Shown here in pieces: positions 723 to 50,611 of a stretch of 64,000 nucleotides of DNA. Source of the DNA: an uncultured Methanosarcinales archaeon. Lineage in GTDB: Archaea > Nanobdellota > Nanobdellia > Woesearchaeales > JACPIF01. Position numbers and translations under genes: made by a program. How positions within the stretch are numbered: position 1 is the stretch's first letter; each line of letters opens with the position of its first letter. Below the pieces are notes generated by a model. It did not search any database and was not told where the DNA came from. It worked only from the letters and a program-made list of their open reading frames with translations. The DNA lies in the NCBI GenBank assembly GCA_964602245.1, contig CAZRPY010000002.1:49833-113832 (forward strand), given 5' to 3'.

Positions 723-1217
723 TCATCTAAGAATAATGTATAATAGAACAAGGATAAGTCCAGCTTCTATTATAGAAATATAAAGCCAAATATTCTTTCT
801 TGGCACAATTTCTTGCTTAAGATTTTGGCCAGTTTTTATCTCTGGCTTTATGTCTGGTTTTGATTCTTCTGTTTTTATAGGTATTCTAACAGCTTCTGCT
901 GGTTTTGATACTTGCTCTTGAGAAACTGGGCTAGAAGCTATTGTTGAGGGTGTTGGAGCATGTTGAGCCTGCAAAGCCTTTATTTTCTCTTGTTCAGCTG
1001 GCTTGAGCCATGGAATAGCCTGAGTGAAGGATTCGTTAATCAGCTTAGTATCGTAACCATTTTCTATCAGTTTCTTCTTAATATCCTCTGGACTCTCACC
1101 CTGGCTTATCTTATCAGTTATATACCTAATCATGTTCCAGTCTACCATAATTAGTAGAAAACATAAGAGATTTAAAAAAGTTTTGAAAGAAATTCTTAAT
1201 AAGGGCATCCACTGCAA
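723..1217 (-). CDS. hypothetical membrane-anchored protein
   Basis: 164-aa ORF with hydrophobic N- and C-terminal segments; P/Q/E-rich linker. Confidence 0.35.
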   Translation of the reverse strand: MQWMPLLRISFKTFLNLLCFLLIMVDWNMIRYITDKISQGESPEDIKKKLIENGYDTKLINESFTQAIPWLKPAEQEKIKALQAQHAPTPSTIASSPVSQEQVSKPAEAVRIPIKTEESKPDIKPEIKTGQNLKQEIVPRKNIWLYISIIEAGLILVLLYIILR

Positions 1218-1418
1218 ACAATTTTAGGGCCAAATATACTCCACTCTCTTTGTAATGAAACTTCACTGGATGGTGTTTTAACAGTACGTTTTCCATTACC
1301 ACCAACAATTAAGCTTTTATATAATGGCCACATTAGTTATTCCGAAATAAGAGCATATATTTAAAGTTTTTGCCATTTAAAAGTTATATTTTTATAGGAT
1401 AGTAACTTCTACTATAAT

Positions 1419-1544
1419 ATGAAAACTTACAAATGCCCTGAATGTGGACTATCCTATGCAGGGAAAGAATGGGCTGGGAAATGCCAGAAATGGTGCTCTG
1501 AGCATAATTCATGCAATTTAGAGATTATTAAACACGCTTTATAA
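1419..1544 (+). CDS. small zinc-ribbon protein (41 aa), not in ORF track
   Basis: ATG..TAA ORF encoding MKTYKCPECG...CQKWCSEH with CPxCG and CxxWC cysteine pairs; below the 60-aa track cutoff. Confidence 0.35.
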   Translation: MKTYKCPECGLSYAGKEWAGKCQKWCSEHNSCNLEIIKHAL

Positions 1545-1598
1545 TACACTTTTCTTTTTCAGATAATTATAAATATATAATTTAGTTGTAGTATTGCT

Positions 1599-2060
1599 AT
1601 GGTAAGGATAATGCTTAACACTAATGTATTTTGTAGACCTTTCGACAGTTTAGAAGCAAGCAGGATAATAGAAGAGGCAAAGAGTTCTGAAATCATATTT
1701 TCTTTGGCTTGGCAAGGAAAGTTAGACATAATATCATCTGATGTTTTATATTCAGAAGTAGACTTGATTGATGACAAAACGAAGAATGAATCAGTATATT
1801 ACCTTATTAAAACTGTTGAAAAAGAAAGAATTTTAATGAATGAGGGAGTATTGAGTTTAGCCGACGCTTTAAATTCTATAATTAATGACTATAATGATTG
1901 CTTGCATATAGCTTTTGCAGCAATAGGTAAGTGCCATTGTTTAATTACTTGCGATTATGAGTTAATTAATAAAAGAAGGAAAATAGAAACATTTTTATTG
2001 TCAAAAGGCATTAACTTAAAAATCAAGACTCCAACAGAGTTTATTGGCAACTACAATTAA
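1599..2060 (+). CDS. PIN-domain-like protein
   Basis: N-terminal LNTNVF motif typical of PIN/VapC-like nucleases; 153 aa. Confidence 0.4.
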   Translation: MVRIMLNTNVFCRPFDSLEASRIIEEAKSSEIIFSLAWQGKLDIISSDVLYSEVDLIDDKTKNESVYYLIKTVEKERILMNEGVLSLADALNSIINDYNDCLHIAFAAIGKCHCLITCDYELINKRRKIETFLLSKGINLKIKTPTEFIGNYN

Positions 2061-47254: not shown

Positions 47255-47602
47255 ATGGTTGAATATAAGCAGGTAATTCTTGTAAGAGAGGATTTAAAGC
47301 TACCTAAGGGGAAATTGGCTGCACAAGCGAGCCATGCAAGTGTCTCTGCACTATTAAAAAGCCATAAAGACACTATTTCTAAATGGAAAGCTCAGGGAAT
47401 GAAAAAAGTTGTTTTGAAAGTGAAAGATGAGAAAGAGCTTATGAAATATAAGCAAATGGCTGAGGATAAAGGATTGGTTACTGCGCTTGTTACAGATGCA
47501 GGAAGAACAGTTTTAGAACCAGGAACTATTACTTGCCTAGGAATTGGTCCTGAGGATGAAGAGATTATAGATAAAGTTAGTGGGAATTTGAAGATGGTTT
47601 AG
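47255..47602 (+). CDS. pth2: peptidyl-tRNA hydrolase, archaeal type
   Basis: MVEYKQVILVREDLKLPKGKLAAQASHASV matches the PTH2 family throughout. Confidence 0.85.
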   Translation: MVEYKQVILVREDLKLPKGKLAAQASHASVSALLKSHKDTISKWKAQGMKKVVLKVKDEKELMKYKQMAEDKGLVTALVTDAGRTVLEPGTITCLGIGPEDEEIIDKVSGNLKMV

Positions 47603-47642
47603 GATTAGTTTTAAATATACTTAACTTTTCCTTTCTTTTATT

Positions 47643-47755
47643 GGGCTCATAGCTCAGCCTGGTAGAGCACTTGACTCTTACTGAACCAAGTTCAGGCCTT
47701 TTGAACTGGTTCAAAAGTAATCAAGGGGTCCTGGGTTCGAATCCCAGTGAGCCCG
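47643..47755 (+). tRNA. tRNA-Lys(CUU) with 39-nt intron at canonical 37/38 position
   Basis: Manually folded cloverleaf. Acceptor GGGCTCA/TGAGCCC, D-arm GCTC-AGCCTGGTA-GAGC, anticodon stem CTTGA/TCAAG, loop C-T-CTT-A. Intron spans 47681-47719 and contains two hairpins. Variable loop GGGTC, T-arm CTGGG-TTCGAAT-CCCAG, discriminator G. CCA is not encoded. Confidence 0.7.
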
Positions 47756-48458
47756 TTTTATATTCTTGAAGTTTTAGGATGTTTTTAGGATTAGAAAATC
47801 CAATTAATTGGGTATATTGCTCTATTTTTTCGTGTCCGCTTAAGTATAAATAGTTAGTAATGTACGGACGTTTAGTAATAGAGTGTATCATTGCACAATC
47901 TGTCTTAATACTAACCTTTAATCCAAGCAAATTAAAAGCCTTTTGACAATCTTGAATAAGTTTCTTACTGGCAAAGTTAAGTTTAACGACTGGGTAATTG
48001 CGCATCTTGATTTGGAAAGAACCGTCAGAATCAATTAATCCTCTTAAACACGCTCGAATAAATTTCGTATCACTCCAAATAACGATTGGCAGTCCGATAT
48101 TATCTTTTCTGCCTCTTGGCAATCCAATAATAGTAGTATAGAATTCAAATAAACCTTTTGAGTCTCTTATCAAAGCACATGTATTTTTCTTTTTAATTAG
48201 AAAGGAGAAATTAAGATTATAAAGTTCCTTTTTTAAGTTTTTTACGTAAATTTCATAATAAGTTCTATCAGAAGTAGCATTACCATAGCATTGTATCTCA
48301 TTGGATGTTGACGTTTTCCTTATAGTTTGATGTAGGCAACCATCACCAACCATAATTCCAATATCTTCAGCGAGAGCTTCATTCATCTCTGAAGGAAGTG
48401 TGAGACCTCTCAATAAGTCTTTTCTACTGAAATTTAATCTTGATAAATCGAATTTCAT
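47721..48458 (-). CDS. free-standing double-motif LAGLIDADG homing endonuclease
   Basis: Two LAGLIDADG motifs (IGIMVGDGCLH and LRGLIDSDGSF) in 245 aa; 3' end overlaps the tRNA-Lys 3' exon antisense by about 35 nt. Confidence 0.75.
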   Translation of the reverse strand: MKFDLSRLNFSRKDLLRGLTLPSEMNEALAEDIGIMVGDGCLHQTIRKTSTSNEIQCYGNATSDRTYYEIYVKNLKKELYNLNFSFLIKKKNTCALIRDSKGLFEFYTTIIGLPRGRKDNIGLPIVIWSDTKFIRACLRGLIDSDGSFQIKMRNYPVVKLNFASKKLIQDCQKAFNLLGLKVSIKTDCAMIHSITKRPYITNYLYLSGHEKIEQYTQLIGFSNPKNILKLQEYKTGSLGFEPRTP

Positions 48459-48762
48459 TAAATCACCGAAATTTATTCATTTGAAACTATGTAAATGATT
48501 TTGCTTATATAGCTCACGTCGGGAGATGTCCAGTGACCAGTGCACAAAGCTCTGTAAAATGCAAGAATTTAGTCTTATTAGGGCTTATAAACCAGAGGAC
48601 ATCCACTGGACCCAAAATCATAATTTTATAGTTGAAATCCCGTATATGGTGATTTATGAAAGAGTTTCAACTAAATTGAGACAACCTAGCGAAAGTCCCT
48701 ATGGGCCTGCTTTCTATTAGATTTATATTGGTATTAACTAGTGTGATAATTATAATAAAAAT

Positions 48763-48872
48763 AACTTGCATCACGAGGCTCTCTAAGAGCCTATACAAAG
48801 GTCCGCTAATCACAATAGTAATGTGCTCTAGCGGACAGACTGGCATGTTGCATAGTGCAACCGTTTGCAATG
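48763..48872 (+). repeat. copy F of TTGCAT..element
   Basis: aacttgcatcacgaggctctctaagagcctatacaaaggtccgctaatcac...gcggacagactggcatgttgcatagtgcaaccgtttgcaatg; hairpin GTTGCA/TGCAAC covaries with GTTGCG/CGCAAC of copies A/B/G; lies upstream of lysK. Confidence 0.6.
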
Positions 48873-48946
48873 AATAGTAATATTAATACTGTTCCTGTAT
48901 TCTAAAAGAATAACTTTTATATATAGTCATAAACCCTATAAAATGT

Positions 48947-50611
48947 ATGGAGAATCCTGAAGAATCCGAATCTTTGCACTGGGCTGATCAGATAGCAAAA
49001 GAAGTGAGAGATAGGGTGGAAAGAGAACTTGTACTTGCAGGTATTGTTAAAGAAAAAGGATATATTGTATATGATGAGAAAACTCCATCTGGAAAGATTC
49101 ATATTGGCTCTGGAAGAGGCTGGGTTATACATGATACTATTGCTAGGGCGTTAAGAGACTTAGGTTTGAAAGGAAGATTTATTCTCAGCTCTGATGACAT
49201 TGACCCTTTTGACAAAATGAATGCAGACCTGCCAAAGGGATATGAGAAGTATCTAGGATTGCCTTTTAGAAACATTCCAAGCCCGGTAAAAGGGTATAAA
49301 AGTTTTGCCGAATATTATTTTAACACATGTGTTGAGAAATTTGAAGAGTTTGGGATTAATGCTGAGATTGAAAGTACAGGAGAGAGGTATATTAAAGGTG
49401 ATTTTAATAGGACAATAAAAATTGCATTGGATAATGCTGATAAAATTAATGATATTTATCTTAGATATTATGGAAAATCTCCTGAGAAATTGCCTTTTAA
49501 CCCTATCTGTAAGAAATGCGGTAAGATTGGAACAACTCAGGCTTATGAATGGGATTCTGAGAGAGAGATTGTTAGATACAAATGCTCTGAAACTCTTGTA
49601 AAATGGGCAAAAGGTTGCGGCTATGATGGAGAAACCTCGCCTTATAATGGAAATGGAAAATTGCCATGGAAGGTTGAGTGGGCTGCTAAATGGCCTACTG
49701 TAGGAGTAGTTTGCGAGCTTGCAGGGAAAGATCATTTTACAGTTGGAGGGTCTAGGACTATTGCAGTAGCTATATCCAATGAAATATTTGATTTTTCACC
49801 ACCATACCCTTCGACTAGGACTGGGATAGGAGATGGCTATGAGTTTTTTACCATTAGTGGAAGAAAAATGTCAACAAGTAAGGGAGAAGGTATTGGATTT
49901 GTTGATGCAACTGATTTTGCTCCTGGACATATCTTAAGATATTTACTTGTTGCAACGAGGCCAAGAGCTGTTATTGATTTTGACCCTGTAAACAGAAATG
50001 ATTTAATCCTGCTATATGAAAGATATGATAAAACAGAGAGGATTTATTTTGGCGCTGAAAAAGAAGAAAATCCTCATGATGCTCAGAAACATAGGAGAGT
50101 TTATGAGTTAAGTCATATAGGAAAAATTCCGAGCAAAATGCTCCCACAGATTTCCTTTACGCATGCAGCATTAGTGTTACAAGCTTCTAATTTAGATGAG
50201 CAGAAGGCTATAAATTTATTGCAGGAGCATAATAAAATACCAAAAAAGCTTGATAAAGAGGATTTGAATTATTTGCATGATAGATTTATATTTGCAAGAA
50301 AATGGTTGGAAAGCTTTGCACCTGAGCAGTATAAGTTTCAATTACAGGATAAAGTGCATATTAAGCTTACTGAGAATGAAAAAGAGATGTTTAAAGAGCT
50401 TAATAAGATTTTACAGCATGGAAGTTTTACAGAAGAAGAATTGCACAGTGAATTTTACAATTTATGTCAAGAATTTGATTATGACTCAAAAGAGTTCTTC
50501 AAAAAGGCTTATTTGATACTGATAAATAAGGAGAAAGGGCCTAAACTGGCTAGTTTTATACTTGCAATAGGAAAGGAAAGGGTGGTTAGGCTACTTAATA
50601 AAATTGATTAA
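48947..50611 (+). CDS. lysK: class I lysyl-tRNA synthetase
   Basis: HWADQIAKEV N-terminus, HIGS (HIGH-like) and KMSTSKG (KMSKS) motifs, C-terminal GPKLASFILAIGKERVVRLL; matches archaeal LysRS-I. Confidence 0.85.
   Translation: MENPEESESLHWADQIAKEVRDRVERELVLAGIVKEKGYIVYDEKTPSGKIHIGSGRGWVIHDTIARALRDLGLKGRFILSSDDIDPFDKMNADLPKGYEKYLGLPFRNIPSPVKGYKSFAEYYFNTCVEKFEEFGINAEIESTGERYIKGDFNRTIKIALDNADKINDIYLRYYGKSPEKLPFNPICKKCGKIGTTQAYEWDSEREIVRYKCSETLVKWAKGCGYDGETSPYNGNGKLPWKVEWAAKWPTVGVVCELAGKDHFTVGGSRTIAVAISNEIFDFSPPYPSTRTGIGDGYEFFTISGRKMSTSKGEGIGFVDATDFAPGHILRYLLVATRPRAVIDFDPVNRNDLILLYERYDKTERIYFGAEKEENPHDAQKHRRVYELSHIGKIPSKMLPQISFTHAALVLQASNLDEQKAINLLQEHNKIPKKLDKEDLNYLHDRFIFARKWLESFAPEQYKFQLQDKVHIKLTENEKEMFKELNKILQHGSFTEEELHSEFYNLCQEFDYDSKEFFKKAYLILINKEKGPKLASFILAIGKERVVRLLNKID

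What the first reader, a model, noticed from the sequence alone, without database searches (positions are those of the whole stretch)
47643..48458. Free-standing LAGLIDADG homing endonuclease gene overlapping antisense the 3' exon of an intron-containing tRNA-Lys
tRNA-Lys(CUU) at 47643-47755 carries a 39-nt canonical-position intron. On the opposite strand a 245-aa ORF with two clear LAGLIDADG motifs (VGDGCLH and LIDSDGSF) ends inside the tRNA T-arm/acceptor region, overlapping it by about 35 nt. Archaeal LAGLIDADG enzymes are normally embedded in rRNA introns or inteins, so a stand-alone copy abutting a tRNA gene is unusual. It may be a remnant of a mobile intron, or an endonuclease that has invaded a tRNA-adjacent site. 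Just upstream of its start, 48520-48615 contains a pseudo-symmetric motif pair (GATGTCCAGTG...GGACATCCACTGGAC) that could be a recognition or homing site or an ncRNA
Basis: seen in the sequence. Interest (0 to 1): 0.6.

Follow-up and report, generated by a model that had tools for sequence, protein, structure and literature searches.

The report
Homing endonuclease gene abutting tRNA-Lys
A real, intact LAGLIDADG endonuclease gene reads backwards into the end of an intron-containing tRNA-Lys gene. It is not a one-off: it belongs to a large, apparently undescribed family in tiny archaea (DPANN) and bacteria (CPR) whose members always sit against a tRNA gene, which points to a selfish DNA element that lives at tRNA gene ends.

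Summary
tRNA-Lys(CUU) lies at 47643-47755 with a 39-nt intron at 37/38. A 245-aa two-motif LAGLIDADG ORF (47721-48458, minus strand) overlaps its last 35 nt. The AF2 model (pLDDT 95.6) matches I-DmoI, I-Tsp061I and PI-PfuI, and both catalytic Asp are conserved.

The ORF is free-standing, with its own TATA box and Shine-Dalgarno site. It is not in an intein or an intron.

The arrangement is family-wide:
- All 29 informative relatives in species-representative genomes abut a tRNA gene (28 with program or pattern support), against 1 of 37 distant viral LAGLIDADG genes.
- Protein clades track tRNA identity: Lys-CUU, Ile, Thr, and Ser in CPR bacteria.
- The family has at least 882 clusters at 50% identity.
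- It is under purifying selection (dN/dS 0.085), yet it is absent next to tRNA-Lys in most close relatives, and pseudogenes occur.

The closest relative (LysRS 87% identical) carries a different family member (30% identity) on the other side of a different tRNA-Lys allele, with the promoter module inverted and reciprocal tRNA relics.

Best reading: a mobile free-standing homing endonuclease gene specialised on tRNA gene ends, comparable to phage T4 SegB. Cleavage, target site and self-immunity are untested. The "pseudo-symmetric motif" belongs to the gene's conserved promoter module.

The parts
47643..47755 (+). tRNA-Lys(CUU) gene. Exon 1 is 47643-47680, exon 2 is 47720-47755. The acceptor stem is GGGCUCA/UGAGCCC and the discriminator is G. 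No CCA is encoded.
   Evidence: Rfam RF00005 59.1 bits. ARAGORN -i calls Lys(ctt) with intron i(38,39). Cloverleaf read by eye.
47681..47719 (+). 39-nt intron at the canonical 37/38 position, with a relaxed bulge-helix-bulge at its junctions
   Evidence: Insertion reported by Rfam and ARAGORN. RNAfold of the anticodon arm plus manual register.
47721..48458 (-). Free-standing LAGLIDADG endonuclease gene, 245 aa. Motif 1 is GIMVGDG (D39). Motif 2 is LRGLIDSDG (D145).
   Evidence: ORF list. Pfam LAGLIDADG_3 and Hom_end. Family profile against PDB sequences. AF2 pLDDT 95.6. Foldseek top hits PI-PfuI, TliVMA intein, I-Tsp061I and I-DmoI. D39 is invariant and D145 >=90% conserved. dN/dS 0.085.
47721..47755 (.). 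35-nt convergent overlap. The last ~11 codons (TGSLGFEPRTP) are the antisense of the tRNA T-arm and acceptor. This is a read-through tail, not part of the fold.
   Evidence: Sequence. The last 10 residues have pLDDT 53. The same kind of tail (GFEP, GIRT, RDSNP, GPxGI) recurs in relatives.
48459..48545 (-).
   Evidence: Alignment of upstream regions from 8 loci (A3). The motif occurs only upstream of family ORFs among 122 loci, apart from one unexplained occurrence (L063). Promoter function is inferred, not tested.
48546..48613 (.). Roughly 70-75-nt insertion shared with L164/L043 and L015. It carries the inverted second copy GGACATCCACTGGAC (48597-48611).
   Evidence: A3 and A5.
48614..48686 (.). 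Distal block of the module: AAAATCATAATTTTATAGTTGAA plus an inverted pseudo-start (GGTGATTTATGAAAGAG..., 7 codons then a stop). It forms an imperfect inverted repeat with the real Shine-Dalgarno/ATG end.
   Evidence: A3 and A5. Read by eye.
48684..48711 (+). Relic of the 3' end of a second tRNA-Lys gene (CCTAGCGAAAGTCCCTATGGGCCTG), in the same orientation as the live tRNA.
   Evidence: It aligns with the 3' end of the complete tRNA-Lys of the closest relative L164, and homology continues downstream to LysRS (A4, 78% over 335 columns). It is the only other match in the 64 kb to a relaxed T-loop/acceptor pattern; chance expectation is 0.26 per 64 kb, but the pattern was designed post hoc.

Best explanation
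The ORF is an active, free-standing LAGLIDADG homing endonuclease gene. It belongs to a large family whose genomic niche is the end of a tRNA gene.

Proposed mechanism:
1. The enzyme recognises DNA of a particular tRNA gene, here tRNA-Lys(CUU), at or near the end it abuts.
2. It breaks alleles that lack the cassette.
3. Repair copies in the cassette (about 235 nt of promoter module plus the ORF), usually together with the adjoining tRNA allele.

The convergent overlap arises because the conserved coding sequence ends exactly at the tRNA 3' terminus. Translation then runs on through antisense tRNA until a chance stop codon.

Shown: the fold and catalytic residues; free-standing status; family-wide tRNA adjacency; clade-to-tRNA specificity; purifying selection; patchy presence; and turnover between close relatives.

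Inferred: DNA cleavage, the target site, the homing route and how the host copy escapes cutting.
For: 1. Enzyme. Pfam LAGLIDADG_3 and Hom_end. The family profile hits the TliVMA intein endonuclease domain (2.5e-11), PI-PfuI (2e-8) and I-DmoI (1.6e-5). The AF2 model has pLDDT 95.6 and Foldseek probability 1.00 to PI-PfuI, I-Tsp061I and I-DmoI. G38-D39-G40 are invariant and D145 >=90% conserved. dN/dS is 0.085 at dS 0.45.

2. tRNA adjacency.
- Of 33 loci in species-representative genomes, 29 are informative.
- All 29 have a tRNA gene within about 110 nt of the ORF end (28 with program or pattern support, 1 by eye).
- At least 45 of 198 cluster representatives carry explicit antisense T-arm peptides in their tails.
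- Control: only 1 of 37 distant LAGLIDADG relatives on viral contigs has an adjacent tRNA.

3. Specificity. Clades in a neighbour-joining tree coincide with Lys-CUU, Ile-UAU/GAU, Thr-UGU and CPR tRNA-Ser.

4. Patchy distribution.
- In a PTH2-anchored metagenome sample, 14 tRNA-Lys(CUU) loci with enough flank lack the gene.
- The nearest PTH2 relatives of loci with the gene mostly lack it, for example L013 against L113 (92% PTH2 identity) and L010 against L100 (93%).
- An in-frame stop or a frame disruption occurs in L014, L033 and L040.

5. Turnover.
- L164 has LysRS 87% and PTH2 88% identical to the window.
- It carries a family member only 30% identical, on the other side of a different tRNA-Lys allele.
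- Its promoter module is inverted, and each locus keeps a relic of the other's tRNA.
- The arrangement is seen on three independent contigs.

6. Neighbours in the window are housekeeping genes, with no integrase.

7. Precedent. T4 SegB is a free-standing homing endonuclease in a tRNA cluster that recognises the T-psi-C motif (PMC2330249).
Against: - There is no biochemical evidence of cleavage.
- No empty allele was found within the same species: the two other contigs with an identical PTH2 both carry the gene, as do all seven contigs with PTH2 identical to that of the P0035 locus L007.
- The last 27 nt of the tRNA and the T-rich flank can be identical in loci with and without the gene (L011 = L077 = L113). 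So a target confined to the tRNA 3' end would not explain self-immunity.
- tRNA introns are not clearly linked to presence of the gene (11 of 12 with it against 10 of 14 without), and L013 has an intron-less tRNA next to the gene.
- Within the Lys clade, endonuclease divergence roughly follows host divergence, which vertical descent with frequent loss could also produce.
- No close relatives occur on viral contigs, so no vector is known.
Confidence: 0.6

Rival explanations
1. Cleave-and-rescue unit. The mobile unit is the endonuclease gene plus its own cleavage-resistant tRNA allele. The enzyme destroys the resident, essential single-copy tRNA gene, and only genomes that keep the cassette-linked allele survive. 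The physical overlap prevents recombination from separating the nuclease from its rescue copy.
For: - The window and L164 share 87-88% identical housekeeping flanks. Yet they carry different tRNA-Lys alleles (acceptor GGGCUCA against GGGCCCA; 1 against 3 introns), each fused to a different endonuclease, with a truncated relic of the other allele.
- Relic break points lie at the tRNA end that the surviving endonuclease type abuts: nt 13/14 for the 5'-abutting HEG2, and the T-loop for the 3'-abutting HEG1.
- L116 keeps a displaced tRNA 3' fragment of a foreign allele type.
- Tight linkage is universal in the family.
Against: - Reciprocal loss after a neutral duplication explains the relics equally well.
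- No resistance-conferring difference between linked and unlinked tRNA alleles was found.
- Introns do not track the gene.
- No cleavage data exist.
Confidence: 0.15
2. Domesticated LAGLIDADG protein (WhiA-like). It is a vertically inherited DNA-binding factor acting at the tRNA-Lys / LysRS locus, lost repeatedly in reduced genomes.
For: - Strong purifying selection.
- Long-term synteny PTH2 - tRNA-Lys - ORF - class I LysRS down to 39% protein identity.
- A highly conserved promoter element suggests regulation.
- Foldseek also hits WhiA.
- The gene appears fixed in the populations sampled.
Against: - The catalytic Asp pair is retained, whereas WhiA has lost it (from knowledge of the family).
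- The same family sits at unrelated tRNA genes and in two domains of life.
- It is absent from most close relatives.
- Pseudogenes occur.
- It has been replaced by a 30%-identical paralogue in a relative with 87% identical LysRS.
Confidence: 0.12
3. Edge gene of an integrated element. The ORF is cargo of small islands that integrate at tRNA 3' ends by an integrase supplied in trans. Adjacency to the tRNA reflects the att site rather than the endonuclease's own specificity.
For: - tRNA 3'-end-like fragments lie on the far side of the cassette in the window, L013 and L018.
- DNA 3' of tRNA-Lys is variable, holding a homoserine dehydrogenase-like gene, a hydrolase, a serpin or nothing.
- tRNA genes are classic integration sites for mobile elements (Yoshihisa review, PMC4090602).
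Against: - No integrase is present in the window or in the loci read.
- The conserved unit is only about 1 kb.
- Some members abut the tRNA 5' end (L164, L026/L027, CPR loci), which att-site logic does not predict.
- Direct repeats are not statistically supported in most loci.
Confidence: 0.08
4. Remnant of a mobile tRNA intron. The ORF was once intron-encoded and was left outside the tRNA after rearrangement.
For: - A LAGLIDADG-bearing bulge-helix-bulge intron does exist in tRNA-Lys(CUU) of related archaea (L023, L160, L161).
- The tRNA next to the ORF has an intron.
Against: - The intron-encoded proteins are not detectably related beyond the shared fold (BLASTP E 1.1).
- They are sense-oriented and carry an N-terminal helix-turn-helix.
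- All members of this family that were examined are free-standing, with their own promoter module.
- The window's intron is only 39 nt and shows no similarity to the ORF flanks.
Confidence: 0.04

Closest known systems
I-DmoI / I-Tsp061I (archaeal rRNA-intron LAGLIDADG endonucleases) and the endonuclease domains of PI-PfuI and the Thermococcus litoralis VMA intein
   Same: Monomeric two-domain LAGLIDADG fold with the catalytic acidic residue at the end of each motif. These are the best sequence-profile and structural matches. The N-terminal K-x-P-x-x-L-x-x-x-LAE-x-x-G lead-in is shared with the intein endonuclease domains (alignment).
   Different: The gene is not inside an intron or an intein. 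It has its own promoter-like region and Shine-Dalgarno site, and it sits in intergenic DNA against a tRNA gene rather than in rRNA or a protein-coding host gene. Sequence identity is 15-20%.
Phage T4 SegB (free-standing GIY-YIG homing endonuclease in the T4 tRNA gene cluster)
   Same: A free-standing endonuclease gene embedded among or next to tRNA genes. SegB's 27-bp site contains the conserved T-psi-C stem-loop motif. Homing carries neighbouring tRNA genes along and erases the recipient's markers (PMC2330249). This is the closest functional analogue.
   Different: The nuclease fold is different (GIY-YIG, not LAGLIDADG). The host is a phage, not a cellular genome of DPANN archaea or CPR bacteria. 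SegB does not overlap a tRNA, and there is no clade-by-clade specialisation on single isoacceptors. Activity is proven for SegB and not for this family.
WhiA (bacterial transcription factor derived from a LAGLIDADG endonuclease)
   Same: A free-standing, vertically inherited LAGLIDADG-fold protein. It is a structural hit (8dy9).
   Different: WhiA lacks the catalytic residues and has an added C-terminal helix-turn-helix (from knowledge of the family). This family keeps both catalytic Asp and is patchily distributed.
Archaeal bulge-helix-bulge introns carrying LAGLIDADG genes (rRNA introns of Crenarchaeota)
   Same: The same enzyme superfamily, and the same host splicing system operates on the neighbouring tRNA intron.
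   Different: The ORF is not in the intron. The intron-borne version seen here in tRNA-Lys(CUU) (L023, L160, L161) belongs to another LAGLIDADG lineage.
tRNA-targeting integrative elements (for example SSV-type integration, where the element's ORF overlaps tRNA sequence)
   Same: An ORF overlaps a tRNA gene end, and displaced partial tRNA copies lie on the far side of the inserted DNA.
   Different: There is no tyrosine recombinase. The unit is about 1 kb. Both the 5' and the 3' tRNA ends are used.

Membership tests
LAGLIDADG homing endonucleases (monomeric, double-motif) | Two LAGLIDADG motifs, each ending in a conserved acidic catalytic residue | tested here: met
   GIMVGDG (D39 invariant) and LRGLIDSDG (D145 >=90% conserved) across 31 aligned members. 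Pfam LAGLIDADG_3 and Hom_end score above the curated cut-offs.
LAGLIDADG homing endonucleases (monomeric, double-motif) | Two alpha-beta-beta-alpha-beta-beta-alpha domains forming a DNA-binding saddle | tested here: met
   AF2 pLDDT 95.6 and pTM 0.92, with the expected order of secondary-structure elements. Foldseek probability 1.00 to PI-PfuI, I-Tsp061I and I-DmoI, with target-normalised TM-score up to 0.78.
LAGLIDADG homing endonucleases (monomeric, double-motif) | Site-specific double-strand cleavage of a long (18-22 bp) target | not testable with these tools
   Needs purified protein and substrates. No target could be deduced from comparing loci with and without the gene.
Homing (mobile) endonuclease genes | Presence/absence polymorphism at a defined site among close relatives, with degenerate copies | tested here: met
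   14 tRNA-Lys(CUU) loci lack the gene. The nearest relatives of loci with the gene mostly lack it. Interrupted copies occur in L014, L033 and L040. A different paralogue occupies the locus in L164.
Homing (mobile) endonuclease genes | Occupied and empty alleles within one species, with gene conversion into the empty allele | tested here: inconclusive
   All same-species contigs found carry the gene, but sampling is thin (2-7 contigs).
Intron-encoded endonuclease | ORF located within an intron of the host RNA gene, on the same strand | tested here: not met
   The ORF is on the opposite strand and outside the tRNA apart from a 35-nt tail. The tRNA intron is 39 nt and has no ORF.
Intein-associated endonuclease | Endonuclease domain flanked by Hint splicing blocks within a host protein | tested here: not met
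   The 245-aa ORF starts at an ATG behind a Shine-Dalgarno site. Pfam shows only endonuclease domains. Homologs are 240-280 aa with the same N-terminus.
Archaeal bulge-helix-bulge tRNA intron (for 47681-47719) | Two 3-nt bulges separated by a 4-bp helix at the splice junctions, at canonical position 37/38 | tested here: met
   Position 37/38 from Rfam and ARAGORN. The motif is relaxed: the central helix CUCU/AAAG has one C-A mismatch (plus manual register). Splicing itself was not tested.
Free-standing endonuclease targeting an adjacent conserved gene (SegB-like) | Gene lies in intergenic DNA next to the gene that holds its recognition site | tested here: inconclusive
   Adjacency is met in all 29 informative loci. 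That the tRNA holds the recognition site is inferred only.

The most novel reading that the evidence does not exclude
The family forms natural 'cleave-and-rescue' units. Each endonuclease is fused by overlap to its own cleavage-resistant allele of an essential single-copy tRNA gene, and it destroys the resident allele on arrival. That would make tRNA genes both the target and the cargo of a selfish drive in DPANN archaea and CPR bacteria. Such pressure could also help explain why tRNA genes in these lineages are so rich in introns at odd positions and so often rearranged.
Probability: 0.15. Interest if true: 0.85.

Novelty: new variant of a known kind. Interest (0 to 1): 0.6.

Why it matters
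If correct, this is a large and overlooked class of meganuclease-type enzymes, with hundreds of diverged clusters, each apparently tuned to one tRNA gene.

- It would extend free-standing homing endonucleases, so far best studied in phages and organelles, to the chromosomes of the smallest archaea and bacteria.
- It would give a concrete agent for the turnover, relics and allele replacement seen at tRNA loci there.
- It would supply candidate long-site nucleases with predictable targets.
- It bears on the old idea that tRNA introns protect tRNA genes from mobile DNA (Randau and Soll, as cited in PMC4090602).
- Practically, it shows that ORF tails reading GFEP, GIRT, RDSNP or GPxGI flag antisense tRNA genes that standard tRNA finders miss in intron-rich genomes.

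Tried and rejected
- ncRNA in 48459-48946. An Rfam E-value search of 47500-49000 gave only the tRNA. My first guess of an RNase P-like GCGAAAGTCC was replaced by the tRNA-relic reading.
- Direct repeats of the adjoining tRNA 3' end upstream of every cassette. Local alignment against shuffles was not significant in most loci. Only the window, L013, L018 and L029 show fragments.
- Introns as immunity. No significant difference in intron content between tRNA-Lys genes with and without the endonuclease gene.
- Immunity through tRNA 3'-end polymorphism. The 27-mers are identical in loci with and without the gene.
- Simple insertion boundaries from pairs of related loci (L013/L113, L010/L100). The DNA 3' of tRNA-Lys is unrelated in each pair, so no clean empty site could be defined.
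- Viral vectors. Only distant relatives (21-31% identity) occur on viral contigs, and they are not next to tRNA genes.
- Same-species empty allele. Not found.
- My early reading of some protein tails as antisense tRNA-Lys(UUU) was wrong. L013 shows CUU.
- Other copies in the window. None.
- Literature. No paper describing this family, or ORF-bearing archaeal tRNA introns, was found in the library searched. Tocchini-Valentini 2011 could not be read.
Full report
**1.

Rfam places a tRNA at 47643-47755 (+) with 59.1 bits and a 41-nt insertion in the anticodon loop. The default run finds nothing in the whole 64 kb.

Read by eye, exon 1 is 47643-47680, the intron 47681-47719 and exon 2 47720-47755. 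The junctions can form a relaxed bulge-helix-bulge: helix CUCU/AAAG with one mismatch, and two 3-nt bulges (plus manual register).

On the minus strand, a 245-aa ATG-initiated ORF runs 48458 to 47721. Its stop codon lies in the 3' strand of the anticodon stem, so 35 nt of exon 2 are shared.

**2. The protein is a bona fide double-motif LAGLIDADG enzyme**

- Pfam LAGLIDADG_3 (E 2.4e-9) and Hom_end (E 1.8e-5) both exceed their curated cut-offs.
- A profile of 31 family members hits the endonuclease domain of the Thermococcus litoralis VMA intein (2.5e-11), PI-PfuI (2e-8), I-DmoI (1.6e-5) and I-Tsp061I (8e-5).
- The AlphaFold2 model has pLDDT 95.6 and pTM 0.92. Foldseek returns the same enzymes with probability 1.00.
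- G38-D39-G40 are invariant, and D143 and D145 are at least 90% conserved. So both catalytic acidic residues are kept.
- Only the last ten residues, which are encoded by antisense tRNA, are poorly predicted (pLDDT 53).

**3. It is free-standing**

Homologs are 240-280 aa with the same N-terminus, and none lies in an intein or an intron.

Upstream of the ATG lie a GGTGAT Shine-Dalgarno site, a TATA-like box and a conserved element, CACTGGnCACTGGACAT. These align across loci whose proteins are only 55% identical (A3). Among 122 fetched loci, the element occurs only 45-90 nt upstream of family ORFs, with one unexplained exception.

The inverted copy sits in a ~75-nt insertion present in a few loci only. 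No Rfam family matches the region.

Neighbouring genes are housekeeping: arginase family, AdoMet decarboxylase, a methyltransferase, PTH2, class I LysRS and purC/purE. There is no integrase.

**4. The overlap is a family trait, not an accident**

The C-terminal tails of many homologs read like translated antisense T-arm and acceptor: GFEP, GIRT, RDSNP, RDLNP, GPxGI.

Thirty-three relatives were found in species-representative genomes of Woesearchaeota, Nanoarchaeota and Aenigmatarchaeota, plus several CPR bacteria. Of these, 29 have enough sequence to judge, and every one has a tRNA gene within about 110 nt of the ORF end. Twenty-eight have support from Rfam, ARAGORN or a T-arm/acceptor pattern, and one (L022) is supported by eye only.

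In archaea the arrangement is nearly always convergent. The conserved coding sequence ends at the tRNA 3' terminus, and translation then reads on to a chance stop. The overlap ranges from none (L001) to 54 nt (L013). In CPR bacteria, and in a few archaea (L026, L027, L164), the ORF is upstream and co-oriented, and it reads into the tRNA 5' end.

Two further results bear on this:
- Control: 37 distant LAGLIDADG relatives on viral contigs include only one with an adjacent tRNA.
- Family size: an exhaustive profile search finds 882 clusters at 50% identity with E<=1e-30 and 3877 with E<=1e-10. At least 45 of 198 retrieved representatives show an explicit antisense T-arm peptide in the last 45 residues, against 15 such strings in 42,891 body residues.

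**5. Protein clades follow tRNA identity**

All members at least 39% identical to the query abut tRNA-Lys(CUU). More distant clades abut tRNA-Ile(UAU/GAU), tRNA-Thr(UGU) or tRNA-Arg(UCU), and the CPR clade abuts tRNA-Ser. This rests on a neighbour-joining tree (which covers Lys, Ile, Thr and Ser) and on anticodons annotated by hand.

The linked tRNA-Lys genes carry 0-3 introns at varied positions: D-arm, 30/31, 37/38, 38/39, variable region and T-loop.

**6. The gene is constrained yet patchy**

dN/dS between L010 and L012 is 0.085 at dS 0.45.

A PTH2-anchored scan of metagenomes shows that PTH2 followed by tRNA-Lys(CUU) is a common arrangement. Even so, 14 such loci with at least 900 nt of downstream sequence lack the endonuclease gene. 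The nearest PTH2 relatives of loci with the gene mostly lack it.

The DNA 3' of tRNA-Lys is a variable spot:
- nothing before a convergent ACT-domain gene (L049);
- a homoserine dehydrogenase-like gene (L113);
- the endonuclease gene plus a hydrolase gene (L013);
- a displaced tRNA 3' fragment of a foreign allele type (L116).

Interrupted copies occur in L014, L033 and L040.

**7. The closest relative shows turnover**

L164 has the same arrangement on three independent contigs. Its PTH2 is 88% and its LysRS 87% identical to the window's. Its order is: PTH2; the first 13 nt of a window-type tRNA-Lys; the ~235-nt promoter module in inverted orientation (82% identity, A5); a different family member only 30% identical; and a complete, co-oriented tRNA-Lys(CUU) of another allele type with three introns, into which that ORF reads. 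After that comes DNA homologous to window 48690-48946, then LysRS (A4).

Consequently, the window's CGAAAGTCCCTATGGGCCTG (48690-48710) is a relic of the 3' end of that second tRNA-Lys. The two loci can be written as:

- Window: PTH2 | tRNA-A | <-HEG1 | <-module | relic-B | LysRS
- L164: PTH2 | relic-A | module-> | HEG2-> | tRNA-B | LysRS

Here HEG1 and HEG2 are the two homing endonuclease genes. Each endonuclease keeps its own tRNA allele, and the other allele is truncated at the end that the surviving endonuclease type abuts. The module ends are imperfect inverted repeats made of the Shine-Dalgarno site, the ATG and the first codons.

Three readings remain open:
- a two-unit ancestor followed by reciprocal loss;
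- an invertible promoter module;
- replacement driven by the nuclease.

**8. Interpretation**

The best-supported reading (confidence 0.6) is a selfish, free-standing LAGLIDADG homing endonuclease gene family specialised on tRNA gene ends. The closest functional analogue is phage T4 SegB, a free-standing GIY-YIG enzyme in a tRNA cluster. SegB's recognition site contains the T-psi-C motif, and its homing carries neighbouring tRNA genes along (PMC2330249).

Cleavage, the target site and the route of spread are all inferred. Self-immunity is unexplained, because the last 27 nt of the tRNA and the T-rich flank can be identical with and without the gene, and introns do not track the gene.

Rival readings:
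- a cleave-and-rescue unit in which the linked tRNA is the rescue copy (0.15);
- a domesticated DNA-binding protein (0.12);
- cargo at the edge of integrated elements (0.08);
- a remnant of a mobile intron (0.04).

**9. Novelty**

Searches of the held literature found no description of tRNA-abutting LAGLIDADG genes in DPANN or CPR organisms. A detailed review of tRNA introns mentions neither homing endonucleases nor LAGLIDADG (PMC4090602).

The enzyme class and the idea of free-standing endonucleases near tRNA genes are both known. What appears new is the family itself, its obligate overlap geometry, its specialisation on single isoacceptors, and its presence in cellular genomes of two domains. 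I therefore rate it a new variant of a known kind.

**10. Side finding**

In three contigs of related archaea (L023:390-1301, L160, L161), tRNA-Lys(CUU) carries an ~840-nt intron at 37/38. In L023 the intron has a canonical bulge-helix-bulge and a 14-bp terminal helix.

The intron encodes, in sense, a helix-turn-helix plus LAGLIDADG_3 protein. The protein is intact at 258 aa in L160 and split in L023 and L161. It is unrelated to the present family beyond the fold. I know of no described archaeal tRNA intron that carries a homing endonuclease gene.

Noticed in passing
L023:390-1301 (-); L160:~988-1865 (+); L161:2-924 (+): tRNA-Lys(CUU) genes with ~840-nt introns at position 37/38. L023 has a canonical bulge-helix-bulge and a 14-bp terminal helix. 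The introns encode, in sense orientation, a helix-turn-helix plus LAGLIDADG_3 protein (258 aa and intact in L160; split into two ORFs in L023 and L161). Only 3 such proteins were found among 5.8 billion. They are unrelated to the free-standing family (BLASTP E 1.1). This may be the first homing-endonuclease-bearing archaeal tRNA introns.
   Followed up: partly
L164:1235-2302, compared with window 47643-48711: In the closest relative, the 235-nt promoter module is inverted. A 30%-identical paralogue reads into the 5' end of a different tRNA-Lys allele, and each locus keeps a relic of the other's tRNA. The module is bounded by imperfect inverted repeats made of the Shine-Dalgarno site, the ATG and the first codons. 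Whether this reflects an invertible switch, reciprocal loss or nuclease-driven replacement is unresolved.
   Followed up: partly
window 47255-50611; L007, L021, L051, L116, L164: Recurrent synteny of three lysine/tRNA-related genes: peptidyl-tRNA hydrolase PTH2, then tRNA-Lys(CUU), then (variable DNA), then class I lysyl-tRNA synthetase. It is conserved down to 31% LysRS identity.
   Followed up: partly
window 48775-48792, 48800-48836, 48847-48861: Three hairpins between the tRNA relic and the LysRS start: GAGGCTCTCTAAGAGCCT, GGTCCGC...GCGGAC and GTTGCATAGTGCAAC. The first and third are identical in L164 although the surrounding DNA differs (A4). They could be terminators or a LysRS leader element.
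   Followed up: no
L116:4013-4215: About 100 nt after the complete tRNA-Lys lies a second T-arm/acceptor fragment of a different allele type (GGTTCGACATCCCGTTGGGCCCA). It is followed by a repeat of the same downstream hairpin pattern. It looks like a footprint of an earlier insertion or replacement at the tRNA 3' end.
   Followed up: no
L063:838-854 (-): The promoter element CACTGGnCACTGGACAT occurs here although no family ORF was detected in the locus by tblastn.
   Followed up: no
window 1-64000; loci L001-L122: Only one tRNA gene is detectable in the 64 kb, and default ARAGORN misses it. In relatives, Rfam at gathering threshold misses tRNA-Lys genes with two or more introns (L001, L007, L018, L021). 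tRNA-Lys(CUU) carries 0-3 introns at the D-arm, 30/31, 37/38, 38/39, the variable region and the T-loop 59/60.
   Followed up: partly
L014:2994-3719; L033:3001-3709; L040:3001-3340: Family copies interrupted by an in-frame stop (L014) or by frame disruption or truncation (L033, L040), while homology continues. These are probably decaying copies, although sequencing error is not excluded.
   Followed up: partly
L030:2666-2778; L038:~2735: In some loci, a second real tRNA gene in the same antisense orientation lies 270-330 nt upstream of the endonuclease ORF. The gene is therefore sandwiched between two tRNA genes.
   Followed up: no
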